Assembly (NCBI RefSeq): GCF_000372725.1
Contig: NW_005201287.1
Location: 899,081 to 963,080 of the forward strand
Length of the DNA: 64,000 bases
Direction: 5' to 3'
From: Emiliania huxleyi CCMP1516
Lineage: Eukaryota
A model generated the notes under the pieces. It had not been told where the DNA came from. It did not search any database and was given only the letters and a program-made list of their open reading frames with translations. Positions within the stretch are counted from its first letter, which is position 1, and the number at the start of each line of letters is the position of its first letter. Below, piece by piece: positions 7,295 through 61,700 of the stretch. The translations under genes and the position numbers were made by a program.

Positions 7295-8328
7295 TCATGT
7301 TGAGGGCACGGGGCTGCCGCTCGGTCCGCAAGCGTCGGCGATCGCGTCGGGCGGCGGGCCCTTTTGCAGCTGCAGCTTGACGAGGAGCGCAGGAGGCAGC
7401 AGCGGCCGCAGCAGCGACCAGGCGCAGGCAAAGGCGGGCGGTGTGTTGACGACGAGCGTCTTGGCGAGGAAGTCCGGGTAGTAGGCCTGCATCACCCGCG
7501 ACAGCTCCGCCGTGCAGAGCCGCGCCTCCTTCGAGAGGTGGAAGCGGCGCAGCCCGGACACGTCCATCACCAGCGTGAAGGCGGGCGAGGACTGCGTGAG
7601 GCAGAGCGTGCGGATCGCGGCCTCCTGCATCGCTATCCGCCAGCGGACGAAGCGGTTCACGTCGGCGAGCGCCTGCGCGGGCGGCGGCGCCTCGATGTCG
7701 CGAGGCCGCGCGGGGAGGAGGGCACAGCGCTGCGGGAGAGGCGAAGCGGCGAGCAGAGCTAGGCAGAGGCGGAGGTAGGCGTGCGGCGGCGCGTGCGGCG
7801 GCGGGAACGCAGCGAGTGCGGCGGCTAGAGGCGAGGCGCAACGGAGGCGTCGGGGACGGGGAAGGGGGAGCGGCGGGTGCGCACCGCTCGGCCGGGAAGC
7901 GTGGCGAGGACGAGGGGTCCCGCGCCCGCCTTGCCGATGATCTTGTCGAGCGGCATGCCCTCCCCAAAATTGCTCATCGAGCTCAGCTCGTCCACCCTGT
8001 TCTCCCTCCGCCACCGAAGCGTGCCCTGTAGCATCCTGCGCGCGTCGTCCACGCACCACCTCCGCGCGCGGAGAAACTGCCGCAGAAGGGGCGCGCCGCT
8101 CTCGCCAGTGAGCGGCACGCCCCACAGCGACGCATCGCCCAGCCCCGACGCCGTCAGAGCCTCGCGCAGCGCTTGCACAGCTGACCCCTCGTCAGAAGGT
8201 CCCGCTCGCGCTGGCCTCATTAGCGCCGCACTTGCCGCCGCGGGCGCGACGCTGGCGGATCGGCGCAGGAGCGCCCCGGCCAGCAGCACCTTGGGAAGCA
8301 GCTTGACTAGGGCCGGTACGGCGATCAT
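7295..8328 (-). CDS. CRAL-TRIO/SEC14 lipid-binding protein (spliced)
   Basis: LLRQFLRARRWCVDDARRMLQGTLRWRRE; LVMDVSGL..MQAYYPDFLAKTLVVNTPPAFACAWSLLRPLL. Confidence 0.85.
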
Positions 8329-14264: not shown

Positions 14265-16158
14265 CGTCTTCTGATAAACGCAGTATGGAAGATACAAAGA
14301 GACGGAGGAGCAACGAGCGCCCTGGCGTGAGCCGAAGACACTCCCTCCGTAGACACTGATCACACACGGGTGGGACAGGGTGGGTCACAACAACGAGGCA
14401 CGAGAGCGTGCTCGACAGAGCGACAACGCAGCGCACTGCCGTCCAGTCGGCGAAGGGACGGCTGCTGCGCAAAGTGATCAGTTCTAATGAATGTACCGGG
14501 GCCCAACGGATAGATGAATCCGGGGCACCCTCCGCTCGAATCCCTGGCCGGGGGTTCGAGGTGGCCCCCACCCTGGGGCCTCCCATCAAAGGGACTGCGG
14601 CAGAAGACGCCCAATCTTGCACAAGTGCAAGAACCATACGTCTTCTGATAAACGCAGTATGGAAGATACAAAGAGACGGAGGAGCAACGAGCGCCCTGGC
14701 GTGAGCCGAAGACACTCCCAACTGCGCTCCGTCACCGGTGTCGCGGTCTCCCCCACTGAGGGCGATCTGCGGGGGGGAGTCGCGCCGCCGGCATGTATCT
14801 GTGCAACTGTGTTTTTGCCTTGTCCCGTTTGATGGAGCAAAGTCACGGGCCGCCCGCGCTTAAGGCGGTCGCGCCAGGCGCGGGCGGCGACGGGGGCGTT
14901 GGCCGAGGCAGCGCACGGAGCAGGGAGTCGAGCGTCGGCGCCTTGGCTGCAATAGCGCGCGAGCAACGCTGCTCGGCCACTCGGTCGCGCGCCGCGGCGG
15001 TCCCGCCCACATACTCGGCGCGAGTCTCAACCTCCGCAGAGTAGTTCTGAAAGGAGTTGGTCCTCAGGCAGGCCGGGAAACTTGCGCGGGTAGTCTTCAA
15101 CATGCTGAGCACATGCCGAGAGAGCAGGGCGGGATGCCCATCGCTCGCTCGCGGAGTGATGTGACCAGCGGCGGCGGCGAGCGAGGCAGCCCCCACGACG
15201 GCGCTCCCCATGGGATCGACGCGCGCCGCCGCCGTGAAGACGGGCCCCAAGCAGCGGGTCATGTCAGACAGGGCTGCGAACGGGACGTCGGCCGTAGGGT
15301 CGCAAAGAGCCCCGACCGTCGCGTACTGCAAGAAGTCGACGGCCTTCGCTTCTGCAGATGGCGCTGGTCCCAAGGGCACGATAGCCTCGGAGTACCCCAA
15401 ATCGCCCCACTGCAGATAGAGCTCGGGCACCGGGATTTGGCGGGAGTGCAGAGCCTGGATGCACACCGTACGGAACGCATCCTCATCCACGTGCACCGTG
15501 CTGAAAACGCCGAGGTCGGACAAGGCACCGAGGATGCGGCGCCAGGCCGCGGCCAATACGGCCAGCCGCAAGACGCTGAGCCTGTCAAAGTGGGTGGCCA
15601 CAGCGGGCTCGGGCTCACTGAAGGCGAGCAGCGCACTGATGGCGACCCACTGCGGAATCTGGACCCACGACGGTTGCATCCCCGGAGGAGGAGGGGGCAG
15701 CTGGAGGAGGGCCGGATTGCCCACCACAGACCACGGAATGAAGCGCAGGGTAGAGCCTACCACTGTTGAGTCGACGGGTATCACCAGTGGCTTTGCGGGA
15801 TCGGGGTGCTGCTCGGCCGGAATGCTGAGCTCGGCGGCAGTGAGGTCTGGCATCGCGGCGCCGGTCGTCTCGTCGAGGGCTACCTCTCGACTCTACTCCC
15901 GTGTCACAACAACGAGGCACGAGAGCGTGCTCGACAGAGCGACAACGCAGCGCACTGCCGTCCAGTCGGCGAAGGGACGGCTGCTGCGCAAAGTGATCAG
16001 TTCTAATGAATGTACCGGGGCCCAACGGATAGATGAATCCGGGGCACCCTCCGCTCGAATCCCTGGCCGGGGGTTCGAGGTGGCCCCCACCCTGGGGCCT
16101 CCCATCAAAGGGACTGCGGCAGAAGACGCCCAATCTTGCACAAGTGCAAGAACCATAC
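14265..16158 (-). mobile_element. Non-autonomous split-direct-repeat (Ngaro/PAT-like) retroelement
   Basis: 256-bp repeat at 15903-16158 and 14384-14639; 81-bp repeat at 14639-14719 and 14265-14345; order on minus strand A1-ORF-B1-A2-B2. Confidence 0.78.
14843..15853 (-). CDS. 336-aa element ORF1 (gag position), probably C-terminally deleted
   Basis: Intronless ORF starting 50 nt inside repeat A1; no RT or recombinase motifs seen. Confidence 0.55.
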   Translation of the reverse strand: MPDLTAAELSIPAEQHPDPAKPLVIPVDSTVVGSTLRFIPWSVVGNPALLQLPPPPPGMQPSWVQIPQWVAISALLAFSEPEPAVATHFDRLSVLRLAVLAAAWRRILGALSDLGVFSTVHVDEDAFRTVCIQALHSRQIPVPELYLQWGDLGYSEAIVPLGPAPSAEAKAVDFLQYATVGALCDPTADVPFAALSDMTRCLGPVFTAAARVDPMGSAVVGAASLAAAAGHITPRASDGHPALLSRHVLSMLKTTRASFPACLRTNSFQNYSAEVETRAEYVGGTAAARDRVAEQRCSRAIAAKAPTLDSLLRALPRPTPPSPPAPGATALSAGGP

Positions 16159-16320: not shown

Positions 16321-18801
16321 ATGGCCAGCATCGGCCTGGCCACCTCGGAAGCGCTGGTACGCGAGCTGCACAGCCGTCACTATGATTGGGAGGTGCTCGA
16401 GCGCGCTGGGCTAAGCTTTAGCAAACTCCGGCATATTGAGCTGCTCACATACCTGAGGCGGGACGCGCCGCGTTTCCGTGAGATACTGAACTCGAGCTCT
16501 CTCGGCCTGAGCGCCTTCGACACGACGCTGCTCCTCCGCACACTTAGCCGGCGACCCGACCTCGCGGCTGCGCTGCGAGAGACGGGCCTCGGTGCAGGCA
16601 GTGACTTTCAGTGCACCTTCGATGAGTCACCACGCGACGGCGGGTGCCAGATCAAGTGCGATGGGCGCAGCTGCGAGCGCGCGCAGGCCAAGTGCCGCTC
16701 GCTTGGCCACTGCGTCTCGGTCGACGTCAACCGCGACAAAACGTGGGCGACGCTCAAGTCGCTTCAGGCCGTCCTGCCGCCGCCGTAGGATTGCCACCGT
16801 CAATCTATTCTCATCATCAATCGTGTCGGCGCAGGTCTTCATGCCGCTGCCGCCGCCGGCGTGCGAGGGCTACGCGTTTGAGGCAAACGGCAGCGCGGCG
16901 GTGCCCATCGACGCGCCGCTCTCGCTCTCCTTCGACGACCTCCCGGTCGGCCCAGGCGGGCTCGGCTTGCCGCAAGAGGAGTGGTGCTACCGCGACACGC
17001 CCGTGCAGCCGCCGCCCGACAACGGCAGGTGGCGCCGCCCCTCTGCCCGGAGCACTCCCGCACACGCCGCTCCGCCTCTTCCCGCCAGATCGGACCTCTT
17101 CCCGCCAACTCTGGACTGATGCACAGCCGCCACGCACGGAGCCAGCCCCCTGCGCCTTCCCCCCCCTGTGCCCACACCCGCCCTCCCGGTGTGCCAACCC
17201 TCCCCCCCCTTGACCGCAGGTGCACGCTGCAGACGTGCTTCGACCTCGAGCGCTGCCAGCCGCGAGCCGGAGAGACGGAGGCGTCGGCGCTGCGGCTGTA
17301 CATCGACACGCCAAAGCCGGCGACGCACGACATGGAGCGGTGGCCGACGTGCATGCGGCAGACGCTGCGCGCTGGCGTGACGGACGAGGCGGAGGGGCGC
17401 TTGCCTCGTCACCCCTGCAGGCGCCTTCCACGAACCTTCTCTGCACCTTCCTATAGGCGGAGGGCGCCTGCCTCGTCATCCCCACTGTCAACATCAACTG
17501 CGAGTGGGACGTCTGCGACCCGGCGACGCACTCGCGGCTGCGGGCGATGCCATCGTGGCGCGGCACCGGCCACAACCACATCTTTTGGGACTACATGGAC
17601 CCCCCCCCAATCAAGTCCGGCCCCGAGGGGGCAAGTTCTTCCTCCCCGCCCCCGGCCCCTCCCCCCCCCCCCCCCCGCCACCCCTCCCCCTCCTCCCCAC
17701 CCTCCCCGCCACCCCTCCCCGCCACCCCTCCCCGCCACCCCTCCCCGCCACCCCCGCCACCCCCGCCCGCACACGGCTCTGTCCCCCCTCCCCCCCCCCT
17801 GCCGCTCCTTCCCAAGGCTCTCTTCCTCAAGACGTCGATGCGCCTCTCCGACTACCGCCCCGGCTTCGACCTGCCCGCGCCGCTGCTCCCGAATGGAGAG
17901 ACCCCGCACTCGCCCGCCGCCCAGCCTCCCCCCACTCGCAGCCTCCCCCCACTCGCCCCGTGGGCCCTCGGACTCGTGAGCCCTCGGACTCGCTCCCCCC
18001 CCCCCACAGGAGAGGCGGCGCGCGTCTCGCCCGCCGAGCTGGCGGCGGCGCGCGGCCGGCGCAGCCTGCTCGCCTCCTTCAAGGGCGTGTGCCAGAGCAG
18101 CTCGCGCCGCCCACAGCTCGCCAAGCTGCACAACGGGCGCGACCTCACCATGGCGTGCTCTTTAATTAATGGCTCATCGTTAATTAGTTAATTAATCAGG
18201 CGCGACCTCATCATGGTGTGCACCAACGGAGGAGGCCGCCGCAGCGCGCAGCACTGGGACTACAAGACGCTGATGCTCTCCTCCGTCTTCTCTGTCGCGC
18301 CTGCGGGCAACGGGCTCCACTCGTTCCGTCTGGCGGAGGCGATCTTCTTCGGGTCGATCCCGGTGGCCGTCGACGACGAGGGGACGCGTCTGGCGCGAGA
18401 TGTGCCTGAGCTTGCCCGGGGCCTTCCCGTAGGTGATCGTCGACGACGAGGTGACCCTCCCCTTTTGCAGCGTGCTCGACTGGCGCCGCTTCTCGGTCCG
18501 GATCCGGCAGAGCCAGGTGAGCCAGCTGCCGCAGCTGCTGCGCGCCATCCCGCCCGCCGAGGTTGCGAGGATGCAGACGCGGCTCGCGGAGGTGAAGCGA
18601 AAGTACTTCCTCTTCCCCTTCAACACCGCGATGGCCATTCTGCATCTGCGCGTGAGGGAGGCGCAGCGAGCCGCCGCCAAGGGGGACGGCGGCGGAGGTG
18701 GCGGCGGCGGCGGCGGAGGTGGCGGCGGCGGCGGCGGCAGGGGCAGGCGGCGGCGGCGCGGCAGGGGGCGGCGGCGACGGCCAGCCGAGGTCGATTTGTA
18801 A
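16321..18801 (+). CDS. Exostosin-family (GT47) glycosyltransferase, about 8 exons
   Basis: WRGTGHNHIFWD, LLASFKG, YKTLMLSSVFSVAPAGNGLHSFRLAEAIFFGSIP|VIVDDEVTLPFCSVLDW. Confidence 0.88.
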
Positions 18802-19511
18802 AGATGCCTCTCATGACTTGAGTCACAATCAGTGAGTGCGGCGTCGGCCGTCGCGCCTGAGTGCGGTTTGTCTATACCTGTGGAGATGGCTCCAGAGAGA
18901 GCAACTCAGCTCTCTCCCCGGTTGCCCCCGGACCCGCGCGCCCGTACGGGGGTCGCGGTCGGCCGCGGGCCGCGGCGTAAAACGCACACATCTCCTTTTC
19001 GCGCGAGAGAGACTGGAGAGGCCTTTTGTTTACCGATATATATTGATTGCTTTTTATTTCGTTTTTACATTTTAGTCTTTTAGAAGGGGACCTGTTCCTT
19101 TTTACCCATCTCACAGTAGAGGAAGAGGAAGTAAGAGGTGTCCGTTTTTATTTTTCCGATTTATTTACGTTTTAGACATTAGCTCGAGTGCGAAGACCGA
19201 AGAGGGTAACATCTCACACGGACGAGACGATGTGCGCGAAGCTAGGCGCGAAGGGTGTGATCGTGTGTGTACGAGAGATGGACGACCCCATTTGCCACCC
19301 GAGGCGCCAGGCGGCTATAGCATTTCGCAAGCACACATCATGTCTCACAGCTTCACAGGCGTTTCTCCGCAGGGCCCCTCTTCGGGGCTTCCTCGCGAGG
19401 CTCCCCCCCCCCCCCCCCCCCATCCCGCAGCCCCCTCCCCTCCCGCCCACCCACGCATGCACCCTCCGAGAGCCGGCGCCCTCTCGTCAAGCCTCGCCCC
19501 GCCGGCGCCCC

Positions 19512-20613
19512 TCAGTCCTGGCACTGGGCGACTGCCTTGTCCTGAATCATGCCCATCGCGTGCATGCCGTTGTCGACGTAGAGCGTGACGCCCGTCACGG
19601 CGCCGAAGAGCGGGGAGAGCAGGCAGCACGCGGTCTGGCCGACGTCGTCCGAGTAGAGGTCCTTGGCGAGCGGCGCGTTCGCCTTGCAATAGTCGATGCC
19701 GACCTCGATGAAGGACTTCTTGTCGCTCTTGGAGATGGCGGAAGCGGCGCGCGACTTGAGCGGGCCGGCGGAGATGGTGTTGACGGCGATGTTGTACTTG
19801 CGGCCCGCCTCCCACGCGAGCACGCGCCTAGGCACAGGCTCCGCCAGCCTCGGGCAAGCCCTCGCGGGGAAGCGTCTCGCGCGGCGGTCTCGCGCGTGTC
19901 GCTCTCGAGCGCCGCCTTGGCAGAGGACATGCCTCCGCCGTACCCCGGGATCACCTGAGGACGGGTCGTGGGCGGGTCGTGCAGGGGCGAGCACACACAC
20001 GTGTCGGCGTGCCCGCGGCGTGCGTCCCGCCTTCTCCGAAGCGATGTACGTGAGCGAGAGGACCGAGCCGCCCTCATTCATGATCGGCCCAAACTTCGAC
20101 ACGAGCGAGACGAGCGAGTACGAGGAGGCGGAGGCGGCGGCGAGGTAGCCCGCGCGCGACGTCTCCAGCAGCGGCTTCTGCACCTCGGGCCCGTTGGCGA
20201 GGGAGTGGACCAGGATGTCGATCTTGCCTATCCGCCGCCAGGGCGTGTGAAGAGACGCCGCTCACGGCCGGCGGCGGGTCAGAGGGGCGGGTCGTGCCGT
20301 AGTCGGCCTTGACAGCCTCGGCAGTCTCCTCGATGGAGAAGCCGTCGAGGCCAGCGTACCTAGGACGGGCCCGACGGCTGTCGCGGCTCGTGGCGGAGTG
20401 TGTCGTGGCGATGGCGTCTCTGGTGCTGTGGAAGAGCAGCGAGGGAGAGGGGCCCCGCGCGCCGCTTGTTGGAGAGGACGTCCTCGGGCACGTCCGCCTT
20501 GGTGTCGAAGACAGCGTCGAGAGGGTAGATCTTCTCAATCACCATCTTGGAGCCGTCGTCCAGAATCATGTCCTGACGACACAGCGAGGCGGCGGGTGAG
20601 GGGTTGTCGACGA

Positions 20614-22387: not shown

Positions 22388-22939
22388 ATGCTCGCGAGCG
22401 TCCTCTGTTGCCTACTCGCTGCGCCGATTCCGCGGTCGCTGATCCCATTCGTCGAGCCGCCCGCCGACCTGTCTCAAATCCCGCTCAGCCACCTGGAGCC
22501 TAACCTTGCAGCAGCGGAGCAGCCGGCCGAGAGGTCGCTGATCCCATTCGTCGAGCCGCCCGCCGACCTGTCTCAAATCCCGCTCAGCCACCTGGAGCCT
22601 AACCTTGCAGCAGCGGAGCAGCCGGCCGAGAGGTCGCTGATCCCATTCGTCGAGCCGCCCGCCGACCTGTCTCAAATCCCGCTCAGCCACCTGGAGCCTA
22701 ACCTTGCAGCAGCGGAGCAGCCGGCCGAGAGGTCGCTGATCCCATTCGTCGAGCCGCCCGCCGACCTGTCTCAAATCCCGCTCAGCCACCTGGAGCCTAA
22801 CCTTGCAGCAGCGGAGCAGCCGGCCGAGAGGTCGCTGATCCCATTCGTCGAGCCGCCCGCCGACCTGTCTCAAATCCCGCTCAGCCACCTCGAGCCCAAG
22901 GGCAACCCTGCAGCAGCAGCACCAGCAGCGTGGCCTTGA
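22388..22939 (+). CDS. Small putatively secreted protein made of 33-aa tandem repeats
   Basis: MLASVLCCLLAAP followed by ~4.7 x RSLIPFVEPPADLSQIPLSHLEPNLAAAEQPAE. Confidence 0.6.
   Translation: MLASVLCCLLAAPIPRSLIPFVEPPADLSQIPLSHLEPNLAAAEQPAERSLIPFVEPPADLSQIPLSHLEPNLAAAEQPAERSLIPFVEPPADLSQIPLSHLEPNLAAAEQPAERSLIPFVEPPADLSQIPLSHLEPNLAAAEQPAERSLIPFVEPPADLSQIPLSHLEPKGNPAAAAPAAWP
22434..22897 (+). repeat. 99-bp near-perfect tandem repeat, ~4.7 copies
   Basis: Units start at 22434, 22533, 22632, 22731 and 22830. Confidence 0.95.
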
Positions 22940-29246: not shown

Positions 29247-32200
29247 ATGGTCCCCCACAACTATTCAGCAGATCTTCCTCAGCGTATGCACTCTCGGCGT
29301 TCGCACCCGCTCTTTGGAGCGCTCTCCATCGAGGAGACCCGCGTCGAGGAGCGCATCCGCACGCTCGCGCTCTGCATAATGGCGGCCGCAGTCCTCGGAG
29401 CCACGCTGGCCTACCTCCGAGCGGTGCTGGTGCCGCTGGTGCTCGCCTCGGCGACGAGGTATCTGCTGGCCTTCCCGGTCGATCTGCTCACGCGCCGGCC
29501 GATGGGGTGCTTCGGCGTCGAGCTCTGCGCGCAGCCCGTCCACGAGCCCGACGCGCCGCTTGTCGTGCGCTGCCTCTCGGAGCTCTTCTGCCGGCTGGTG
29601 CTTCCGCGGCCGCTGGCGGTGCTGGTGACGCTCGGCGTCACGGGGCTAGCGTGCAGCTATATCGGAGTGCTCCTCATGGACTCGCTGCGCACCTTCTCCG
29701 CTCGGGCCGACACGTACTCGGAGCAGGCGCCGTCTCGCGTCCGGGAGAGGAGGGAGGAGAGGAGGGGGCCCGGGGGTAAGGGCGCGGCGGCTGCACCGGA
29801 CTTGTGCGCCCGCAGGTGCGGCGGCTCATCGACGGCGTGCTCGCCTGGCTGGACGGGCTCGAGTTGGACTCGCTCCCTCCGCTGAGGCGCCTCGGGGAGA
29901 CTGCACACCGCCGGCACGCACACGGCTAGCTTCACTGTGAGATGGCTTGACCCCTCCAGGCTCGAGAAGCTGCACCAGCTGGTCGGGCAGGCGCGATGCC
30001 TCACTCTAGGGCGGCGGCTCCGCGGCGAGCCCGGGACTCTGTCTCTCTCTGCCACCTGCCACCTGCCGCGCTGCTGCTGCTAGCCCGCCCTCGCGTCCGC
30101 CGCCCTGCTGCTGCGCTCCCTCCCCACAGCAAGCTGTGTGGGTCTCGCCCCTCTGTCCGCCCGCGGGAGGAGTGACCGCCCCCCCCCCCCCTCCCCTCCT
30201 CCCCCTCGCCAGGTCCCCCTCACCGGCCTGGTCATGTCGGTCGTGGAAGGGATGCTCTCGCTCCTGTCCAACATGCTCCTCGTCCTCCTCTTCACCGTCT
30301 ACCTGATGCTGGGGAGGCGAGACACTTCCGAGACACTTCCGAGACACTTCACCATCTACCTGATGCTGGGGAGGCGGGCACACACCACACGCCCCACACC
30401 ACACACGCCTCACACCACACACGCCGCACAGTCCACACGCCGCACGCACCCCCCCACCTCCCCCCCACCGCCCCACCGCCCCGGCCCGCCTCGCCCCCTG
30501 CGGAAGGGACGCGCGCGACGGGCTGCCTGCGGACGACGTGCTGCACAAGGTCGACGACCGCACCCGCGCCTTCATCCGCGGGAAGGTCTCCCTCTCTCTG
30601 CTGGTCGGCGGGCTCACCGCGCTCGTCCTCTGGTGCGCACTCCCTCGCGGCCGTCGGCCGGTCCTCGGTCCGCAGGCCGCCTGGTCACGCACACACGGTG
30701 CGGGCAGGTCGATCAACCTCGAGCTGTGGCTCCTGTTCGCCGTCCTCGCTTTCCTCCTCAACTTCATACCGAACATCGGCGCCGTCGTCGCCACGCTGCT
30801 GCCGCTGCCCGTCGCCGCTTTCGACCCGGGACAGACCTCCCTCTCCGTCTTCCTCTCCTTTGCACTCCCGATGGGGGCGCGCCCCTCCCCCTCTTGCCCT
30901 CGCCCCTCGCCCCTCGCCCTCTGCCCGCGCTCCCTCTCCTCCCCTCCTTCCCCAATTCCCCCCCCCCCCCCCCCCACACTCCCCCCCCCCCCCACACTCC
31001 AGGTCCACCTCGCCGTCGGGTCCGTCCTTGAGCCGCTCATCTTCGGCAGCACACCCTCCCGCCTCGCGTGGCCACCCGCGCCATGTCCGCGACGCGTCCG
31101 GCACGTGTCCCGCAGGCAACTCGCTCGACCTGCACCCGGTGGTGGTCCTCCTCTCCCTCATGATGTGGGGCACCATCTGGGGCGTGCCCGGGCTCGTGCT
31201 CGCCGTGCCGCTCACCGCAATCATGCGCATCCACCTCGCACACATCGACCACCCGCTGCCGCGCTACCTCGCGCGCGTGCTCGTCGGGAGGGAGGAGCGC
31301 GCCCCTCACACCCCCCGCTTTCCCCCTCACACGCGTCCCTGACACGTCACTGACACGTCCCCTGGCACGTCCCTGACACGTCCCTGGCACGTCCCTCCAG
31401 GTGCGGCGCGACCCGCTGCTCGGCTCCGACGCGGGGTCGACTCTCGGAGACGGTGCCGCCTCACGCACGCGCTCGCTCAGCTGGAGCCCCGTGCTCAACC
31501 CCCCTATCCCTTTTCTTTTCTTGTGCCTCATTCTATTTTTCAATTTTAATCATTTCATANNNNNNNNNNNNNNNNNNNNNNNNNNNNNNNNNNNNNNNNN
31601 NNNNNNNNNNNNNNNNNNNNNNNNNNNNNNNNNNNNNNNNNNNNNNNNNNNNNNNNNNNGCGTGGGGGTCCGTCCTTGAGCCGCTCATCTTCGGCAGCAC
31701 ACCCTCCCGCCTCGCGTGGCCACCCGCGCCATGTCCGCGACGCGTCCGGCACGTGTCCCGCAGGCAACTCGCTCGACCTGCACCCGGTGGTGGTCCTCCT
31801 CTCCCTCATGATGTGGGGCACCATCTGGGGCGTGCCCGGGCTCGTGCTCGCCGTGCCGCTCACCGCAATCATGCGCATCCACCTCGCACACATCGACCAC
31901 CCGCTGCCGCGCTACCTCGCGCGCGTGCTCGTCGGGAGGGAGGAGCGCGCCCCTCACACCCCCCGCTTTCCCCCTCACACGCGTCCCTGACACGTCACTG
32001 ACACGTCCCCTGGCACGTCCCTGACACGTCCCTGGCACGTCCCTCCAGGTGCGGCGCGACCCGCTGCTCGGCTCCGACGCGGGGTCGACTCTCGGAGACG
32101 GTGCCGCTTTAGGCAGGGGCTGGTTAAGCGGGAGCCCGGTGTTAAACCCCCCCCCACCCCCCCCCCCCCCCCCGCCCCCCGATCACGGCCGCAGGCTCGA

Positions 32201-32939: not shown

Positions 32940-35900
32940 TTAAGGCACAGGCTCGCAGTGAGCAGGGCACTCCTTGGGACGAGACGCGAAGAGAAGCCGC
33001 CGAGTCGCGAGGCACCCGGGCGGACAGTCGCCTCGAAGTGGGGACGACGGTGGCGGCGGCGACGCCAACACCCCTGCCTTCTTGGAAACGTACATCTGCA
33101 CCTCCGCTGGCTCGCCGATGATGTACATGGTGGATGCATCCTTCATCACGATGCCCTCGGGCTGTGCGCCTTGCAACTTGAGCGGGCCGCTGAGCAGCTT
33201 GCCGCTGAGGTCGCTCGTAAAGACCGTTGCAGGGCCGATGCTTCCGTCGTCGATGCCCTCATGCGAGACAAAGATAAGCGAACGGCTCTTGTAGTCGTAC
33301 GTCATGCCTGCAATGTCCGTGGCCACGCCCGAGAGAAGCGCCTGCTCGTCATTTCGGATGGATGACGAGTGCGATTGAATGCGGAGCTAAATGAGAGCCA
33401 CCGCACGCGAGGAGAGAGAGAGGAGAGGTGGGAAGGCAGCGCGCCTGATCGGAGGTCGTGTCGAACACCTCGCCGCTGGCAAGACGCGGCGGGCCGCTGA
33501 AGAGAAGTACTGTCTCGCGCGTGCGCATGTCCACGCGCAGCACGCGCATCGGCAGCTCCTCGGTGAGCGTGTAAAAGAAGCCCGCCGGGTCGTAGGCGAC
33601 GCCCTCGAGGCCACGGTTCGTGGACTTGGCGTCGTCCACAAGGCTGACGGCGTACATGTCCTCCGGCGGCACCGCCGCGTAGTCGACGGTCGCCTCGACC
33701 ACCACGCCATCTGCTGCCCCCATCAGAGGGAGCGTGATGAGAACGAGGTTTAGCCGGCCCTCTTCAGTGACGACGAGCCGCACGCCCGTCGACGTCTTCT
33801 CGACCAGGGCAAGGCCCTCGACGTCGTCGAAGCCGTCCATCCGCACCATGCGCATGAGCTTCGGCGGCGAGGAAGGGGTCGGCAGCGTGTACTCGAAGAG
33901 GCGGACGAGCTTCTCGTCGCCCTTTGCAACGTCGCTATTGAGCGGGTTGTTGTTGCAGAAGATGATCGAGTCGATGTCGCCCGCGCCGCCCGGTATGATC
34001 GCCACGCCGGAGAGGTCCTCTGCTTTGCTGCTCTCCGATAGATCCCATTGCTCGACAAACTCGAACGTGCTCACATCCACTGCCGGCGTGGTGGGGTGAA
34101 AGGGCGGCGGCGGCGGATTTGGTGGCGCCTTTGGCGCCGGTGGAGGGCTCGGCGGAGACGGGAGCGACGGTGGTGCAGGCGAAGGCACGTCGAGGTCCAC
34201 AAACGGGTTGGCCACGCCGAGCGTGCGCTCGTCGAAGACCACAAACACCGCGCTCTCGGCCCAGTTTATTCGGCCGAGGGACTGGGCGGCGGTCGGGTTG
34301 TTGCCGAGGGCGTCGTTCCAGACGCCAGTGCGATCGACGATCATGTCCGCCGTCACGTTCCCCTCTGCCGACGAGAAGAGCACCACGTCGTCCGTATTGC
34401 CGTTGCCGAAGCCGAAGCCGCAGCCCTCCAAGTACGACGCCACCACCGCGCCCGCCGCGTCGAACGTGAAGGCCTTCTCGCCCTTGCACACGACCAGGTA
34501 GCCATGCGCCGGGATCTCCGCCGGGCACGAGCCCTGGCCCAGCACGAGCGCCTTGCCCGCCGCCACCTCGGCCGGCAAGTCGGACACGATGCCCAAATCG
34601 GGCGAGCTGGACGAGTCGTCGAGCGCCATGCCCGCCACGGAGGACGGCGCTCCCACAACGTTGACCAGCTCGACCCAGTCCTCGCCCGCGCAGAGGTCGG
34701 TCTCACTTCCCTGGTTGGTCACCTCGTTGATCAGCACGGCCGAGCTGCGCGGCGCGAGCAGCACGCGAGTGGGCACATGCACGGGCATGTGCATGCATGA
34801 TGCGTGGGCGTGGGCGTGGGCGTGTGCATGACGTGTGCATGTGCATGGACATGGACATGGGCGTGCGAGTGTGCGTGTGCCTGATCCAGGTGGCCGGCGC
34901 GTTGGGTGCGCCAAGCGTGCGCAGGTTGAACACGGCAAACTCGCCGGCGCCATTGCGGCCGAGGGACTGGGCGGCGGTCGGGTTGTTGCCGAGGGCGTCG
35001 TTCCAGACGCCAGTGCGATCGACGATCATGTCCGCCGTCACGTTCCCCTCTGCCGACGAGAAGAGCACCACGTCGTCCGTATTGCCGTTGCCGAAGCCGA
35101 AGCCGCAGCCCTCCAAGTACGACGCCACCACCGCGCCCGCCGCGTCGAACGTGAAGGCCTTCTCGCCCTTGCACACGACCAGGTAGCCATGCGCCGGGAT
35201 CTCCGCCAGGCACGAGCCCTGGCCCAGCACGAGCGCCTTGCCCGCCGCCACCTCGGCCGGCAAGTCGGACACGATGCCCAAATCGGGCGAGCTGGACGAG
35301 TCGTCGAGCGCCATGCCCGCCACGGAGGACGGCGCTCCCACAACGTTGACCAGCTCGACCCAGTCCTCGCCCGCGCAGAGGTCGGTCTCACTTCCCTGGT
35401 TGGTCACCTCGTTGATCAGCACGGCCGAGCTGCGCGGCGCGAGCAGCACGCGAGTGGGCACATGCACGGGCATATGCATGCATGATGCGTGGGCGTGGGC
35501 GTGGGCGTGTGCATGACGTGTGCATGTGCATGGACATGGGCGTGCGAGTGTGCGTGTGCCTGATCCAGGTGGCCGGCGCGTTGGGTGCGCCAAGCGTGCG
35601 CAGGTTGAACACGGCAAACTCGCCGGCGCCATTGCGGCCGAGGGACTGGGCGGCGGTCGGGTTGTTGCCGAGGGCGTCGTTCCAGACGCCAGTGCGATCG
35701 ACGATCATGTCCGCCGTCACGTTCCCCTCTGCCGACGAGAAGAGCACCACGTCGTCCGAATTGCCGTTGCCGAAGCCGAAGCCGCAGCCCTCCAAGTACG
35801 ACGCCACCACCGCGCCCGCCGCGTCGAACGTGAAGGCCTTCTCGCCCTTGCACACGACCAGGTAGCCATTCGCCGGGATCTCCGCCGGGCACGAGCCCTG

Positions 35901-40609: not shown

Positions 40610-41344
40610 CTACCGCCCGCATACGGCACACAGGTACAGATGGCGTTTCATCGATACGACAGCATCTATTGGGCCCTGCGAATTCTGCGAGCGGATGCGG
40701 TAGCCCACCTTTGGGTAGACACGCCCTTGGAAAGTCAGCGGCGACCGCCCCGCTGCCCTCCCCTCAGGAGCCTCATCTTCCTCAGGCTGCGGTGCCGGCA
40801 ATCTCCGGAGCTCAGACCTTAACCATGCTAACCGAGCGTCGCACTCTGCGGCAGTGAGTGAAGTGGACAAAAGGTGAGATGGTGAGCGTTTGCTCTCGTC
40901 CATCCGATATGCTGCTCCTCCCCTCGCAACATGCGCCAGCGCCGCAGAGTACTGCAACCACTGCGCCGCGAAATCGTCACGCCTAGCACCCAGCGACGCC
41001 TCGTCGGCCATTGCAGGGATGCATGCACTGACCGCGAGCTCCTCGCTTTGATCGTGAAACGAACGAGGAGCCCCGGGCTCTGAAATTCACAACGAACATT
41101 AAGAGCGTGCTCGACAGAGCGACAGCGCAGCGCACTGCATGCCGTCCGATCGGCGGAGGGTTGGCAGCTGCGCCAAGTGATGAATTGAAGGTACCGGGGC
41201 CCCGATGGATGAATCCAGGGCACCCTCTGCTCGAAGCCCCAGGCTTGGGGTTCGAGGTGGCAGCGGCCCCCATCCAGGAGCCGCCCATCAAAGGGACTGC
41301 GGCAGAAGACGCCCCGATCGCCCAATGTTGCTGCGCGAGATACG
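40610..41344 (-). mobile_element. Degenerate relative of the 14265-16158 element
   Basis: 41102-41314 is homologous to repeat A; an ORF starts ~90 nt downstream at 41011. Confidence 0.55.
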
Positions 41345-42407: not shown

Positions 42408-43416
42408 ATGCCGCTTTCCACGGTCAGCAAGCTCATCGCGGTCTCATCGTGCAAGGGTGGCGTTGGCAAGTCGACCGTCGCCCTCGAGCTCGCATATCAC
42501 CTGCGCCGTCGTGGCCACCGAGTCGGGCTCTTTGATGCCGACGTGCACGGCCCTTCGTTGCCGACGCAGATTCCGCTCGGCGATGTGCGCCTCACGCTGG
42601 CGGCGGACGGTCGGTCGGTGCAGCCACTGGAGCATGGCGGCGTGCAGCTCATGTCCTTTGGCTGGTTCAGCCGGCTCTGGTCGAGGCGGCCGGCAGCCGA
42701 GATTCGCGTGCGTGGGCCGCTTGCCACCAACCTGCTGCAGACGACGCAGTGGGGCGATCTCGACTACTTACTCATCGACTCGCCGCCAGGCACGGGCGAC
42801 ATCCCCAGCCAAATCGCGAGGCTGCCGCTTCACGGGGCGGTGGCCGTCACGACTCCCTCTCGGCTCTCCGTCGTCGACGTCGTGCGAGGCAGCTTGTTCC
42901 TTCGCCCGACTCAAAAGCAAAGAGACCCACTGATAATCAATTAAGTCCCAAACAGGCATCCTCTTCCTCCGCCGCCTCGGCGTGCCTGTGCTCGCGCTGG
43001 TCGAAAACATGGCCTCCTTCCGCTGCGACGGGTGTGGAAAGGACCATTATCCGTTCGGGCGCGGACACGCCGCCGGCGTGCTCGCCGACGTAGCCGCCGC
43101 CGAGGCGACCGACCCTCCGCCGGCCATCCCAACCTTTGCGCTGCCCATCGTCCCGGACCTCGGCGGCGCGAGCGGCGACTCCTCTGCCGCGCCGCGGCTT
43201 GACGGTGCATCCGCTCCGCTCGAGAGCAGTTTGGACGCACTCGCCGATGCGCTGGATCGCGCCACTTGTGGCGACCCGCCCGCGCTGCTGCCGCACCAGC
43301 TCGCCTTCCACGAGGTGCCGCATTGGCCAACGGAGATGGCGATGGCGGAGTATGTCGAGCAGAGAGTATCGGGGTCCGTGCAGAGCACCCAAAACGAGCA
43401 CTTGCGCGGAACGTAG
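42408..43416 (+). CDS. Mrp/NBP35/HCF101-family P-loop Fe-S scaffold ATPase
   Basis: SSCKGGVGKST, DADVHGPSLP, WGDLDYLLIDSPPGTGD, VENMASFRCDGC; intron 42889-42955. Confidence 0.92.
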
Positions 43417-43490: not shown

Positions 43491-44803
43491 ATGCTGGCGG
43501 TCTTGTCGGCAACTGCCCTACCCGCCGAGCCGCCGTCGGCAACAGCAGCTGCCGTACCAGGACTAATCGTCGACACCGATATTGGCGGCGGCGGCTGTCG
43601 GGATGTTGATGACGTCGGCGCCCTCGGCGTAGCGAATGCTCTGGCCGACAGCGGCGTTGTTAATCTGCTGGGTGTCGTGCAGAATACACAGGCGACCAAC
43701 TCAACGGGTGTTATCAGCGTGGTGCAGCGCTATTACAGCCGCACTATCCCCACCGGGGTCTACCGCGGCTCCGGCCTCCGAGACCTCGCCGCACTCCCGT
43801 ACGTGGCCGACATCGTGGCGCGCTGGCCGTCGCCGGTGCGAAATTCGTCGCAGGCGGGCTCGGCCGTCAAGCTGTACCGCCACCTGCTCGCGGGACAGCC
43901 GGACCGATCGGTGGCCGTCGCCTCCATCGGGCTCCTCACAAACCTAGCGGCGCTCTTCCAGTCCTCCGCCGACAAGCACAGTGAACCTTTTCTCCGGCGC
44001 GGCAAACTCTGCTGGTCCGGCTCCTCATCGGCCCCTCCTCTCCCGCAGGTCCGCTCAGCGGCCTCTCGCTCTTCGGGCAGAAGGTCTTTCGGCTCGCCAT
44101 CATGGGCGGGCGCTACCCGTCCAGCAAAGGGCAGCGCTGCGAGTGCAACTTCTGCGCCGCCGCGTGGGGTGCCTCGAGAGCTGCCCCTCGCCCGCTCCCC
44201 GAACTGCGGGAGCTGCCCTCGCCCGCTCAGCGGCGCGCTCTCCCCGACGTCAGGCGGCATCGACCACCGAGCAGCGGTGCAGGCCTCCGCGCACGTGGTC
44301 GAGCGGCTGCCCGCGGGCGTGGACGTCGTCTTCAGCGGCCTCGAGGTGCGGCGGAGCACGGCATCGTCAACACCGTCCTTACTGTTCTGTGATTGCTCTC
44401 ACCGTCCCTCGAGGTGGGGCTGAGGGTCGTCACCGGCGCGGCGCTCTCGACGTGCGCGCCGGCCGCTTCGCCGCTGCGTCAGGCTTACGTCGACTACGGC
44501 GGCGGAGTAGACCGAGGGCGCTACTCGTGGGACCTCATCACGACGCACGTCGCCGCAGCCGGTGGCCTGCCGGGCGTGAGGCGCTGCTCGGACTGCGGCG
44601 GCGTCAACGTCGTGGACGCGTCCTCGGGCGCCAACGCGTGGAGGCGCGGCCCAGCCGCCAACCAGACCTACCTCGTCCTGGAGGACGCGGCCGACGCGCA
44701 ACGGGTGATCGACCGACTGCTCTGCCAGCCGCCGCGGCTGGGTGCAAGCGCGCCCAACGACGTTCCCTTTGCTGCTTTTGCACGAGCCGGTCCCATCGAG
44801 TGA
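43491..44803 (+). CDS. Inosine/uridine-preferring nucleoside hydrolase family protein (4 exons)
   Basis: IVDTDIGGGGCRDVDDVGAL, SIGLLTNLAAL, IMGG, ECNF, SWDL. Confidence 0.88.
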
Positions 44804-45105: not shown

Positions 45106-46230
45106 TCACTGCCCGCCCACGACGAGCGCCGCCGTCGGGACGCGGCCGCGCAGGTAGAAGAGTGGGTAGGCCTTTGCGCCGAGCGTGCACGGCAGATTGG
45201 TGATGACTGCCTGCGGCGCCGCCCCCTCCTCGGCGTGCGAGTAGACCCACGGCACCGTCGCGGCCAGCTCGGCGGGCAGCATGCCGTTGAAGGGCGGCGG
45301 GTGCCCCTGCGTCGAGACGGCGAGCTTCACCTCGCTCCCGTCCCGGAGCCGGACCGGCGTCCCCTCCTCGACGCCGCCGCCGCGCTGCCGCTTGGCGGCC
45401 GGCCCTCCGCCTCTCGCCGCGTCGAGCAGCAGCCGGAGCAGGTCGGCGACCTTCATCAGCAGCGAGTCGGCGAGGTAGTCGGCGCCGGGCACCTGCGGGA
45501 CACGTCCGTGACATGTCCGGGACGCGTGAGGGGCATGTCCTGGAGACGGAGAGGGGGGGGCGTCGCTCGCCCCCTCCGCGAGCCGCTGGCCGCAAAACTC
45601 GAGCTCGATCTCGTGCTGCACGGGCGCGAGCCGCGCCGCCTGCGCGAGGGAGGCGAGTGGAGGGGCGGTCGTCAAGGGGCTGAATCGCGGCGCGGGGAGC
45701 CGAGGCGGCGCGGGGAGCCGAGGCGGGTGTGCGGCGGCGGCTGCGAGGAGCGGCGAGCCCGGTCCGGCCGCCTGCTCGGTCGGCCCCTGGTTGACTCGCG
45801 TGAGCTCAAAGGCGAACATGCCCTTGTGCACAAAGCTGACGCGCCGCTTCCGGCGCCAGAGCACCACGTCCGAGTCGTCGCGCGGCGCCTCAAACTCGGA
45901 GGAGATGGCGAAGCGGACCGCGTGCCTGCACTGGGCGGTCGCCTGCACGAGAAGCGGCTGCACCGACTTGCCCTTGCGCAAAAAGGTGCGCTGCTGGGTG
46001 GCCACGTCGATCGTCTCGCGCACGCCCGTCGCGTGCATCAAGTCGATCGTCTCGTGCTCAGCCGGTGTGTTGGACCAGCCCCGGTTGCGCCAGAGCGAGG
46101 CCATCACAGCCTCGAAGCCCGCCTGGTCCACGTCCTTGACGCGCGCCTCGACCTCCATCCTCGGGTCGCGGCGGTGCTGCTCGAACCACTGCAGCAGCAC
46201 GTGGCGGGCCTCGCGGGCGAGGTACTCCAT
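45106..46230 (-). CDS. Triphosphate tunnel metalloenzyme (CYTH / mRNA triphosphatase-like)
   Basis: EVEAR, VRFAISSE, RRKRRVSF, FELTRV, HEIELE; two probable introns. Confidence 0.72.
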   Translation of the reverse strand: MEYLAREARHVLLQWFEQHRRDPRMEVEARVKDVDQAGFEAVMASLWRNRGWSNTPAEHETIDLMHATGVRETIDVATQQRTFLRKGKSVQPLLVQATAQCRHAVRFAISSEFEAPRDDSDVVLWRRKRRVSFVHKGMFAFELTRVNQGPTEQAAGPGSPLLAAAAAHPPRLPAPPRLPAPRFSPLTTAPPLASLAQAARLAPVQHEIELEFCGQRLAEGASDAPPSPSPGHAPHASRTCHGRVPQVPGADYLADSLLMKVADLLRLLLDAARGGGPAAKRQRGGGVEEGTPVRLRDGSEVKLAVSTQGHPPPFNGMLPAELAATVPWVYSHAEEGAAPQAVITNLPCTLGAKAYPLFYLRGRVPTAALVVGGQ

Positions 46231-58707: not shown

Positions 58708-61700
58708 TCATGAGGGCAACTTGACCGCCGCGATGGCCTCCTTTTTGAACTCGACGCGGAGCGCGAGGATCGCGCGCGCCTCGGCGGCGGAGAGGCGGAG
58801 CCCGCCGTCCGCCCACAGCTCGGCGAGCTCCGCCTCTCGCTCGAGGGAGAGCAGCGCCGTCACCTGGGTGAGCCTCGCGGTGTGCCCCCGCACGGAACGG
58901 CTCGAGAGGGCGCCGAGGCGGCCCGTGAGCGCGCGCACGTCGCGCTCGAACTGCAGCGCGCCGAACATGTCCACCCGCTTCGTGAGGAGCAGCGCCTCGA
59001 TCCGCTGCGCGCAGTGGCTGAGCAGCTTGCCGAGCAGCGCCTGGAGCCGGGGGGGGGAGAGGGGCGGCGTGTCGGTCGGGGGCGCCGCGCCCCCTGCCAT
59101 CGGTAGAGTGGTGCGCGGAGAGGGCGCGCCTCGGCATTGTCGGCGGAGAGGCCGCTTCGCACCGACGCCATCGCCGCCTCGAGCTCGCCGACGAGCGGGC
59201 CGACGAGCGAGGCGGACTCGGCGGCGGCGAGCGCCTCGTCCGAGCCGAGCACGTACGACCTGTACCCGGGAGAGGCGGAGAGGCGTCGGCAGGGGGGCCT
59301 CCTCCCAGGGGGGGCCTCCTCCCGGAAGCGCGCAGCGAGCGGGGTCGGCGGCACCGGTCCCTCAGCGCGTCGAGGCGCGGCTTGAGGCGCGGCGTCAGCG
59401 AGGCGCAGAGCTGGTCGAGGCCCTCCTCGAGCGCAGCAGACAGCTTGGCGTCCGCCTCAACCTTGGCCGCCTGTCGGGGCACGCAGAGTCCGTGAGCCGC
59501 GTCTCTTCGCAGCTCCTCGCCCGCGCCTCGCGCTTGGTCGCCTCGAGCGACGCTGCGACCGCCTCCATCGCCGGCGCGGGCAGCTCGCGCGCGCACGCCT
59601 CCTCGGCGCCGCGCCACAGCCGAGGCGCGCACGAGAGGCTCAGCTGCAGCCCGTTGAGCGCGCGCAGCGTCGCGGGCAGGCGCGAGGCGGCGGTGCCGAT
59701 CGCCGAGCCGGCGGCCGACACGGCGGTGCCCATCGCGCCGGAGACACACGCGGACGCGGCGGTCCCCACCATGGTGCATGCCGTCCCCTGCGTCGCCTCG
59801 GCCACCATGGCGTGCGCCGAGGCGAGAGCAGCGCCCGCCAGCTTGGCGGAGACGGACAGCACGAGCTGCGACGAGAGCGCGTCGAGCAGGAGGCCGCCGA
59901 GCAGCGTCGCCGCCTGCGCCACCGCCGCCGCGGCGACGGCGCCATCGCACGAGTTCGCCGCGCGCAGCAGGTGGCGCTGCAGGACGTAGTACACCGAGTC
60001 GATCAGCTCCGACTTGGAGGCGTCGCCGGACGAGTCTTCGCTCATCGCGCCGCCTGCAGAGGGCAAGGCCAGGCAGTTTTGGGCTGTGGCGGAGCTCGCG
60101 GGACCGTCGCGAGGGGCGAGAGCGGCGAGAGCGGTGAGGGCGGCGAAGGCGGCGAGAGCAGGGCGGCGAAAGCGGCCTGTCGCTCCGCGCACGCCGCTCG
60201 TCGCGGCCGCGCCCGCGCCGCCGCCCGCAGCGCCGCCCACCGCAGCCGCCTCCTCCTCGAGGGCGGCGTCGAGCCGGATGGCTTTGATGGTGGCCGCCCA
60301 CGCGTACTGCGACGAAAGCGCCTCCAGCGCGCGCCGCAGCTCGAGGAAACCCTCCGTGCCGCCCAGCGTGGCGGGGGAGGCGGGAGGGCGGGCGGAGGGG
60401 GTGCGGGCAGCCGACGGGGCGAGGAAAGGGGCCGCGTATGCGTCGTACTGCGCGGCGCCGCGCAGCAGCCCCGTCAGCTCATCGAGCAGCCTACGAGTCG
60501 CGAGGTCTCGAGGCGTGAGCCCCTCGAGGGTGGGCGAGGGGGCAGCTGAGCCCCGCGGCGAGGGGCCGTTCGCAGCCGAGCGCCTCCGCCTCCGCGTCTG
60601 GGGCAACCTACTCCGCAGCCGGCGAGCCTCACCGGGGGAGGGGGAGGGCCAGGGCCTCCCCGGCGCGGCAGCCTCGGGGAGGGAGCCCGCGACGGGAGGG
60701 GCGCTCATCCGGCGGGCGGCGGCGGCGGAGCGGGTGCGGAGCTGCGCAGCGGCGGAGTACTGCGCGGCGAGCTCGGACCTATTTGTACGCGAGTGGTGGG
60801 CGGCGCGGCGTGAGGGCGGGGGAGGGGCGGGGGCGGAGAAGGGAGAGCGCCGGGAGGGCGGAGAAGGAGAGGGCGGTGGACCGCGGGAAGGGAAGAGGGC
60901 GGGGGAGGGGGAGGGGGAGGGAGGCACCCGAGTGAGAGAGAGCACGCATACAGCTCGAGGCACAAACCACGCGCCTCCTCCGCTGCCGCCGCCGCCTCCT
61001 CCTCCGCTGCCCCTGCTGCTGCGTGGTCGCCCTTACCACCGCTCGGCCCTGCCCCGGCGGCAGCGGCGGCGGCCGTCGGCCCGAGCGCCTGCGTCACTCC
61101 GCCGAGCGCCTCCGCCGTCGCCCGCAGCAGCCGCGCGAGGCGGGCGGGCAGGACGGCGAGCGCCTTCTCCTCCTCCTCCGCCGCCGTCGGCAGCGCGGCC
61201 GCCTCCACGCGCGCGCGGCAGAAGGCGGAGAGGGAGGATCGCCCCTCCGCCGGAGAGCCGAGCCGAGCGAGCAGCGAGACGAACCGGCAGACGGCAGGCA
61301 GCGCCTTGTCTGCGAGCCCGTCCGCGAGTCCCGCCCGCACGGCGCTCTCCACCCGCGCGTGAGCCGCCTCCGCCCGCGCGCGCGTCTGCGGCTCGATGGC
61401 GCTGCCCGCCGCGCGGACCGAGGAGAGGGCGCCTTGCGCGTGCGCCGCCGCCGCCTGAGAGGGAGGGTGCGGGAAAGGGTCAGCGAAAGGGCTTTGGCAG
61501 ACTCAGGCTCTGGGACGGGGCGTGTGGACGGGGGCTTGTCGGGCGGCAGGGCCGCGGGCTCTCGCGACGTGGGGAGCAGCGCCAGTGGTGATGCCCAGTG
61601 GTGAGGGCCAGTGGTGAGGGCCAGCGGTGAGGGCCAGCGGTGAGGGCCAGCGGTGATGCCGCGCGCCTCGAAGTTGCCGCTCGAGAGGGCGGCGTCGGCC

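What the first reader, a model, noticed from the sequence alone, without database searches (positions are those of the whole stretch)
16768..18455. 'Echo' introns: the intron 5' end is a degenerate copy of the next exon's 5' end (five cases in the GT47 gene)
Seen, intron start vs next exon start: 16768-16834 gccgtcctgccgccgccg vs gtcttcatgccgctgccg (14/18); 17389-17456 gcggaggggcgcttgcctcgtcacccc vs gcggagggcgcctgcctcgtcatcccc (~24/27); 18137-18199 gcgcgacctcaccatggcgtgc vs gcgcgacctcatcatggtgtgc (20/22); 18363-18432 gtggccgtcgacgacgaggggac vs gtgatcgtcgacgacgaggtgac (20/23); 17896-18009 gagag..ctcgcccgccg in both (weaker). Similarity starts at the splice site and stops after ~20-27 nt. Four of these introns are 63-70 nt. 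Inference: either intron birth by short duplication or staggered-break repair at proto-splice sites, or repair templated by spliced mRNA that overwrites intron 5' ends. Either route could explain the many GC donors here, because the donor would copy the exon's first bases. I do not know whether this has been described.
Basis: partly seen in the sequence, partly recalled or inferred. Interest (0 to 1): 0.88.

Follow-up and report, generated by a model that had tools for sequence, protein, structure and literature searches.

The report
Algal introns copying the next exon
In the bloom-forming alga Emiliania huxleyi, many real, spliced introns begin with a worn 12-28-letter copy of the exon that follows them, likely the scar left when each intron was born by a short local DNA duplication, which would make intron birth without transposons countable across a whole genome.

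Summary
Confirmed and wider than reported. RNA contigs of two studies splice all seven introns of the GT47 gene, and independent DNA carries the echoes. The five echoes (14/18, 25/28, 21/27, 20/22, 20/23) beat mismatched pairs (p 0.0008-0.006). Across 37 introns of the window the echo persists outside this gene (p 0.0002; 0.014 in three whole genes not chosen for echoes); the 3' mirror test is negative. New: 36 of 37 downstream exons start with G and 33 with GT/GC; echoes are strongest in the shortest, AT-richer introns. Orthologues in other lineages lack these introns; one has a parallel gain with its own echo. Best reading: birth scars, a 20-30 bp duplication around a G|GY site plus about 40-50 nt of filler, the copy serving as donor. 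Geometry resembles Daphnia break-repair introns and Introner target-site donors, but repeats are longer and no shared element was found. Copying only partly explains GC donors. Ten paper searches found no description; this scan noted single look-alike cases in other genomes. Evidence rests on one 64 kb window.

The parts
16321..18802 (+). Exostosin/GT47 glycosyltransferase gene, 8 exons (16321-16767, 16835-17028, 17220-17388, 17457-~17630, 17817-17895, 18010-18136, 18200-18362, 18433-18802)
   Evidence: Pfam PF03016 hits below the curated cut-off on the last two exons; 78% identity over 531 aa to P0003; RNA joins
16768..16834 (+). Intron 1, GC-AG, 67 nt; first 18 nt echo 16835-16852 (14/18); body 49% GC; same site holds an independent intron in L006
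17029..17219 (+). Intron 2, GT-AG, 191 nt; 7-nt exact repeat across the junction, no long echo
17389..17456 (+). Intron 3, GC-AG, 68 nt; first 27 nt echo 17457-17483 (25 of 28 columns)
17631..17816 (+). Intron 4, about 186 nt, start inferred; an 8-nt word shared with the next exon, not significant; window sequence unreliable just upstream
17896..18009 (+). Intron 5, GA-AG, 114 nt; GA donor equals GA exon start; first 24 nt echo 18010-18036 (21 of 27 columns); internal tandem repeats
18137..18199 (+). Intron 6, GC-AG, 63 nt; first 22 nt echo 18200-18221 (20/22); 41-nt remainder, body 26% GC, unrelated to flanking exons
18363..18432 (+). Intron 7, GT-AG, 70 nt; first 23 nt echo 18433-18455 (20/23); the echo is followed by a 9-nt copy of upstream exon sequence at about -36
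42889..42955 (+). Echo intron (14/18) in an Mrp/NBP35-like gene (name recalled from motifs); DNA run X7 has the exon's base at 42902
   Evidence: RNA joins in X11, X12
44346..44413 (+). Intron with 9/11 echo plus a 7-nt copy of the upstream exon end (both sides), nucleoside-hydrolase-like gene (name recalled)
   Evidence: RNA join in X14 only
45640..45771 (-). Intron with gapped echo and 9-nt exact junction repeat, CYTH-like gene (name recalled)
   Evidence: RNA joins in X11, X12, X14
45493..45570 (-). Intron with weaker echo (anchored score 8), same gene
59471..59541 (-). Echo intron (14/18), COG4 gene
   Evidence: placed by transcript-derived protein P0035
60608..60672 (-). Echo intron (15 of 20 columns), COG4 gene
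29887..29959 (+). Intron with gapped echo and a remainder resembling the upstream exon, AI-2E transporter gene
   Evidence: placed by P0041 and P0040
25..177 (-). Intron with 11/12 echo inside a PGEGEHKI motif (XRN exonuclease motif, recalled); placed by that motif only
19828..19895 (-). Intron with 9/12 echo in an enoyl-ACP-reductase-like gene (name recalled); its five other introns show weak or no echo

Best explanation
These are genuine spliced introns whose first 12-28 bases are worn copies of the next exon's start, likely birth scars: a repair or replication event likely duplicated about 20-30 bp of coding DNA starting at a G|GT or G|GC site and put about 40-50 nt of other sequence ending in AG between the copies, so that the first copy would serve as the donor and splicing restores the original reading frame. 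Shown: splicing, the repeats, their one-sidedness, GY exon starts, absence in orthologues. Inferred: staggered-break repair with filler as the enzymatic route; afterwards the intronic copy drifts (biased to GC, which turns GT donors to GC) and the intron lengthens by internal repeats until only the G|GY remains.
For: RNA joins at 18 introns. Echo in 37 introns: matched 4.84 vs mismatched 1.98, p 2e-5; outside GT47 (n=30) p 0.0002; ENR+AI-2E+COG4 whole genes (n=22) p 0.014, within-gene permutation 0.02; mirror test p 0.2-0.8. 36 of 37 next exons start G, 33 GY, against 18% GY in exons; 35 of 37 upstream exons end in G. Echo score falls with intron length (rho -0.53, p 0.0007; outside GT47 -0.44, p 0.014) and with GC of the intron body (rho -0.42, p 0.009; outside GT47 p 0.058). 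Genomic orthologues L001/L002 (78% aa, nearest), L003, L005, L008/L009 are uninterrupted over most or all seven sites. Echoes carry the window lineage's bases where it differs from L001, and the changes lie on the intron side. L006 has an intron at the intron-1 site with an exact 16-nt copy of its own next exon, while its sister L005 (82% nt) has none. X7 keeps the exon base at 42902. Daphnia neointrons show the same geometry with 4-12 bp repeats and frequent parallel gains (PMC4202315, passages).
Against: Only 37 introns of one window; 24 of them score below 6 and cannot be told from chance singly. The 42.3-48.6 kb stretch was chosen because I had seen candidates there. No intron-less allele was seen in three DNA runs (one table cut), so birth was not caught. 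The nearest orthologue is distant (78% nt), and its lineage looks intron-poor, so loss there is possible. AG|G exon starts could be a spliceosome preference. Intron 7, the Mrp-like intron and AI-2E intron 2 hint at a longer whole-segment duplication, though the pooled test falls to p 0.07-0.15 with stricter nulls. The source of the filler was not found.
Confidence: 0.55

Rival explanations
1. Whole-segment tandem duplication (Rogers model): a 55-70 bp exonic stretch spanning the site was doubled, the intron was first (next-exon start + previous-exon end), and its 3' part was later remodelled into branch point, pyrimidine tract and AG.
For: In 6 of 9 strong-echo introns a 6-8 nt match to the upstream exon at -29 to -44 follows the echo, implying units of 57-73 nt, close to intron length; Fisher p 0.007 against other genes. 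Intron 7 p 0.01-0.016 alone; AI-2E intron 2 remainder ranks first of 37; 44346-44413 copies 7 nt of the upstream exon end. Supplementary Fig. S9 legend of PMC4028052 records a 9-nt upstream-side repeat at one junction.
Against: Post hoc; p 0.07 (same-locus null) and 0.11 (shuffled) pooled. Last 20-30 nt of introns do not resemble the upstream exon. Intron 6 keeps 20/22 in the echo but its remainder is 26% GC and unrelated.
Confidence: 0.2
2. Spliced mRNA or cDNA templates repair and overwrites the 5' end of existing introns with the next exon's start, renewing old introns.
For: Explains the one-sidedness (overwriting the 3' end would destroy the acceptor) and a ready-made 3' end; intron 1 shares its position with a distant relative, each with its own echo. 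Transcripts can steer end-joining in yeast and human cells (PMC11390984, abstract only).
Against: Six of seven sites are empty in every orthologue that covers them, and the shared site is empty in L001, L003, L005, L007, L008; a chance shared site is plausible with 20 AGGY and 79 GGY sites in the gene. Does not produce GY exon starts in 33 of 37 or AT-rich bodies unlike the other introns.
Confidence: 0.12
3. Introner-like or retro-type elements inserted with unusually long target-site duplications, the donor co-opted from the duplication.
For: Same geometry as Symbiodinium Introners (PMC9860276, passages); Introners exist in another haptophyte genus (same paper); remainders of the strongest cases are of similar length (41-49 nt); a few intron bodies share 20-45 nt motifs.
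Against: No end-to-end family among 153 pairs of 18 short introns; remainders differ in GC from 26 to 78%; reported duplications are 3-9 bp, here 12-28 and variable.
Confidence: 0.08
4. Chance in GC-rich repetitive DNA plus splice-site preference, or selection to keep the echo.
For: Short repeats are common in this window; an intron-blind scan did not single out AG-flanked repeats (5 seen, 3.6 expected).
Against: Permutation, within-gene and offset controls; echoes contain frameshifts and amino-acid-changing substitutions, so they are not kept as code.
Confidence: 0.05

Closest known systems
Intron gain by staggered double-strand-break repair, Daphnia pulex (PMC4202315 passages; PMC3443670 passages)
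   Same: Direct repeat of an exon end at the opposite end of a new intron, unique inserts, parallel gains at one site, internal repeats that lengthen young introns.
   Different: Repeats there are 4-12 bp in 33 cases; here 12-28 nt, almost only on the donor side, and introns appear fixed, not polymorphic, in the runs seen.
Tandem genomic duplication (Rogers model; ATP2A1, PMC3265369 opening text; potato RdRp, PMC4974935 abstract)
   Same: Intron start resembles the downstream exon; donor comes from duplicated coding sequence; protein unchanged.
   Different: The model needs AG|GT in the exon and an intron 3' part copied from the upstream exon; here the site is G|GY, often without AG, and the 3' part is mostly unrelated. 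Known cases are isolated; here 9 of 37 introns are clear cases.
Introners with 5' splice site co-opted from the target-site duplication (Symbiodinium; PMC9860276 passages; PMC11282704 part 2 of 5)
   Same: Donor made from duplicated gene sequence, acceptor brought by the insert, GC-AG borders common.
   Different: Duplications of 3-9 bp and repeated element bodies; here long, variable repeats and no shared body in the window.
GC-AG introns of E. huxleyi (PMC4028052 passages, supplements 1 and 6 text)
   Same: 56-65% GC donors (24 of 37 here); figure legends note junctions that can slide by 4-12 bases.
   Different: The paper ascribes GC donors to genome GC content; 'direct repeat', 'downstream exon' and 'intron gain' do not occur in its main text.

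Membership tests
Staggered-break (NHEJ) neointrons, Daphnia type | [quoted passage not shown] | tested here: met
   longer (12-28 nt) than the 4-12 bp in PMC4202315
Staggered-break (NHEJ) neointrons, Daphnia type | Intron absent from outgroup orthologues | tested here: met
   L001/L002, L003, L005, L008/L009 uninterrupted; only distant outgroups available
Staggered-break (NHEJ) neointrons, Daphnia type | Unique inserted filler | tested here: met
   no family in 153 pairs, no source in the window; genome-wide not testable
Staggered-break (NHEJ) neointrons, Daphnia type | Presence/absence polymorphism within the species | tested here: inconclusive
   no intron-less allele in DNA runs X6, X8, X7 or L012; contigs drop rare variants and one table was cut
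Tandem genomic duplication (Rogers) | Intron 5' part copies the downstream exon | tested here: met
Tandem genomic duplication (Rogers) | Intron 3' part copies the upstream exon | tested here: not met
   mirror p 0.2-0.8; single hints only
Tandem genomic duplication (Rogers) | AG|GT(GY) present in the exon at the site | tested here: inconclusive
Introner elements | Many introns share one element sequence | tested here: not met
   window only: 18 short introns, 153 pairs
Introner elements | Short fixed-length target-site duplication (3-9 bp) | tested here: not met
   repeats 12-28 nt, variable
Introner elements | One splice site co-opted from duplicated gene sequence | tested here: met
   33 of 37 exons start GY; GA donor matches GA exon start
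Introner elements | Terminal inverted repeats | not tested
   no dedicated search was run
mRNA-templated overwriting of old introns | Echo on introns whose position is ancient and shared | tested here: not met
   GT47 only: 6 of 7 sites unshared; the shared one is absent in L006's sister L005

The most novel reading that the evidence does not exclude
Most introns of E. huxleyi, and perhaps of other haptophytes, were made by one transposon-free route: 20-30 bp local duplications with filler that turn any G|GY in coding DNA into a donor. Every intron then carries an echo of an age-dependent strength, which gives a built-in clock for tens of thousands of intron births and explains the AG|GY exon starts and part of the GC-donor majority. 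A stranger version (rewriting from spliced mRNA) is not excluded either, at about 0.1.
Probability: 0.4. Interest if true: 0.87.

Novelty: new variant of a known kind. Interest (0 to 1): 0.72.

Why it matters
How introns arise without transposons is an open question: a review counted only 5 gains tied to break repair and 188 to tandem duplication across all species (PMC3443670, Table 1 passage). Here about a quarter of introns in one ordinary window (9 of 37) carry a clear scar and nearly all carry its minimal form. If this holds genome-wide, E. huxleyi, with many strains and close sister species sequenced (recalled), would let one date intron births, measure repeat and filler lengths, and follow how a new donor and acceptor mature. 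It also offers a partial cause for the GC-donor majority and warns that aligners and gene finders misplace junctions here (the NCBI COG4 model P0036 differs from the transcript-derived P0035 at several junctions).

Tried and rejected
No whole genome is held for this window, so no genome-wide test. Assembly artefact: rejected. Alternative junction placement: rejected, one canonical cut per skip. Intron-blind scans for AG-flanked repeats are swamped by other repeats and show nothing alone. Shared element family: only short motifs shared. Source of the intron-6 filler: no exact 24-nt match in viral contigs, no 13-mer elsewhere in the window; weak tests. GT47 relatives in viral contigs: none; in prokaryote genomes one 35% match, unrelated to the question. 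Upstream-exon continuation after the echo: significant against other genes, not against stricter nulls. Faster divergence at +2..+6 than beyond: 14 of 61 vs 22 of 157, p 0.15. Left out of the 37 for want of transcript support: COG4 introns 1-2, candidates near 1455-1518, 7727-7885, 54686-54760 and the 33-37 kb repeat gene. The 9-nt echo of L007 may be partly a shared donor motif, since L010's intron starts alike. Li 2009 and Huff 2016 were not held and are not relied on.

Full report
Setting. Two genes of the window match records named Emiliania huxleyi CCMP1516 at 100% (P0036; P0039). No whole genome is held, so everything below rests on this 64 kb window, seven sequencing runs laid as contigs, and 15 metagenome loci. 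The names GT47, COG4 and AI-2E come; enoyl-ACP reductase (ENR), Mrp, nucleoside hydrolase, CYTH, RPL27 and XRN are my recollection from motifs.

The observation. The gene at 16321-18802 has seven introns. RNA contigs of two studies skip all seven, each with one canonical G..AG placement, and homologous proteins run across the junctions in frame. DNA contigs of two other runs cross the introns without joints, and L012 has the same echoes, so the repeats are in the organism's DNA. The five echoes are 14/18, 25 of 28 columns, 21 of 27, 20/22 and 20/23, ranking at p 0.006, 0.0008, 0.0045, 0.0008 and 0.0008 among 1332 mismatched pairs.

Is it general? I assembled 37 introns: 18 with listed RNA joins, 1 from contig-length arithmetic (table 8), 14 from a spliced alignment of P0035 (a transcript record) and P0041 (transcript origin inferred), 2 more placed by hand from P0041, and 2 from recalled conserved motifs. 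Candidates without such support were left out (see Tried and rejected). Nine of 37 reach a score that 2.3% of mismatched pairs reach; 4 of 30 outside GT47. The mirror test (intron end against upstream exon end) is negative in every set (p 0.2-0.8), as are offset controls.

36 of 37 downstream exons begin with G and 33 with GT or GC, against 18% GY in exon interiors; 35 of 37 upstream exons end in G, 19 in AG. The one exon not starting with G follows the RPL27 intron, which has no echo. So nearly every junction reads G|GY...AG|GY. Echo strength falls with intron length (rho -0.53) and with GC content of the body (rho -0.42; outside GT47 p 0.058); the strongest cases are 63-71 nt with remainders of about 41-53 nt, three of them AT-rich (26, 41, 49% GC) where echo-less introns are about 70-84% GC and full of internal repeats. 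Differences run from exon A/T to intron G/C (19 of 64 sites) far more than the reverse (8 of 167). Donor +2 follows exon +2 in 21 of 32 cases (p 0.13); 8 of 15 GT-starting exons have GC donors. Copying therefore feeds, but does not alone explain, the GC donors.

Comparative evidence (GT47 only). Of 15 loci, L012 is the same species; L001/L002 (78% aa, nearest in the tree), L005 and L008/L009 are uninterrupted over all seven sites and L003, L004 over the parts they cover; L001 and L005 carry neighbouring genes and so are genomic. Where the window differs from L001, the echoes of introns 6 and 7 carry the window's bases, and the echo-exon differences lie on the intron side: the copies were made after the split. 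L006 has three introns, one at exactly the intron-1 site and holding an exact 16-nt copy of its own next exon; its sister L005 (82% nt) has none, nor do L007 or L008 at that site. Two gains are simpler than four or more losses, and a shared site is not improbable with 20 AGGY sites in the gene. L007, L010 and L014 each have one intron at other sites, with 9-nt, offset 7-nt and no echo. No intron-less allele appeared in X6, X8 or X7; X7 has the exon's base at 42902 inside the Mrp-like echo, as expected of a decaying copy.

Mechanism. The echoes are best read as birth scars (about 0.83 for all birth routes together). I commit to duplication of about 20-30 bp with an unrelated filler, as staggered-break repair gives (0.55): the left copy starts at G|GY and becomes the donor, the filler supplies branch point and the A of AG, and the frame is restored exactly. 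The one-sidedness follows if a loose donor is easy to borrow from GC-rich exons and an acceptor is not (inference). The chief rival is a whole 55-70 bp tandem duplication with later remodelling (0.2): the echo is followed by 6-8 nt of upstream exon in 6 of 9 strong cases (p 0.007), but this drops to p 0.07-0.15 under stricter nulls and only intron 7 stands alone. Overwriting from spliced mRNA (0.12) fits the asymmetry but not the GY starts, the AT-rich bodies or the empty orthologues. A transposon with long target-site duplications (0.08) lacks a family among 153 pairs. The enzymes involved are not shown.

What is known. Daphnia neointrons have 4-12 bp exon-terminal repeats and frequent parallel gains (PMC4202315, passages). 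The Rogers model and its tests are in PMC3443670 (passages), PMC3265369 (opening text) and PMC4974935 (abstract). Introners with donors co-opted from 3-9 bp duplications are in PMC9860276 (passages; 'huxleyi' and 'Emiliania' do not occur in its main text) and PMC11282704 (part 2 of 5). PMC3443670 also warns that 5-bp repeats flank old and new Drosophila introns equally; the permutation controls here address that. For E. huxleyi, PMC4028052 reports 56-65% GC donors, ascribes them to GC content, and its supplementary legends mention junctions that slide by 4-12 bases without interpreting them; its splice-site logos and five other supplements were not seen and may show the AG|GY pattern. Ten searches found no description of such echoes in haptophytes; the library lacks most subscription papers, including the genome paper's text, so absence is not proven. 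Other papers opened (PMC11347168, PMC3488318, 10.1101/2021.10.25.465678, PMC11453091: passages; PMC11390984: abstract) added only background. This scan's notes hold single look-alike cases in other genomes and nothing on this one.

Verdict. Real, more than chance, not confined to one gene; a new variant of known duplication-based intron gain, notable for repeat length and prevalence. Interest 0.72; it would be higher with a genome-wide test.

Noticed in passing
L006:125-190 and L006:554-656: Two of the three lineage-specific introns of L006 end in telomere-like CCCTAA runs that contain a CTAAC branch-point word and finish in CAG; telomere-type sequence as filler would be a ready-made intron 3' end.
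   Followed up: no
window 17550-17630: The window differs from two RNA and two DNA runs at about ten bases before the poly-C intron 4; likely a sequencing error in the assembly that garbles about ten codons.
   Followed up: partly
window 15903-16158, 14384-14639, 41102-41314: A 256-bp dispersed repeat (100% and 81% copies) lies just upstream of the GT47 ORF, which lacks the 70-100 N-terminal residues of its homologues; possible truncation or a missed first exon.
   Followed up: partly
window 30317-30506: AI-2E intron 4 contains a 30-nt copy of the upstream exon end plus its donor, 57 nt downstream: a spare exon end.
   Followed up: no
window 31016-31410 and 31668-32110: The end of the AI-2E gene is present twice on either side of the 100-N gap; probably an assembly overlap or second haplotype.
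   Followed up: no
window 45493-45570, 31046-31115, 31295-31400; L007:197-351: Unrelated introns share short GACAYGTCC / CCTGACATG-like repeat units near their 3' ends, also in another species; possibly branch-point-bearing minisatellites.
   Followed up: partly
window 34230-36780 (- strand): A gene built of about 660-680 bp near-identical units, each apparently with its own repeated intron.
   Followed up: no
window 22435-22900: An ORF made of almost five near-perfect 99-bp repeats.
   Followed up: no
window 30633-30707: Protein P0040 reads through this 75-nt in-frame intron, suggesting retention or a mis-called gene in that record.
   Followed up: no
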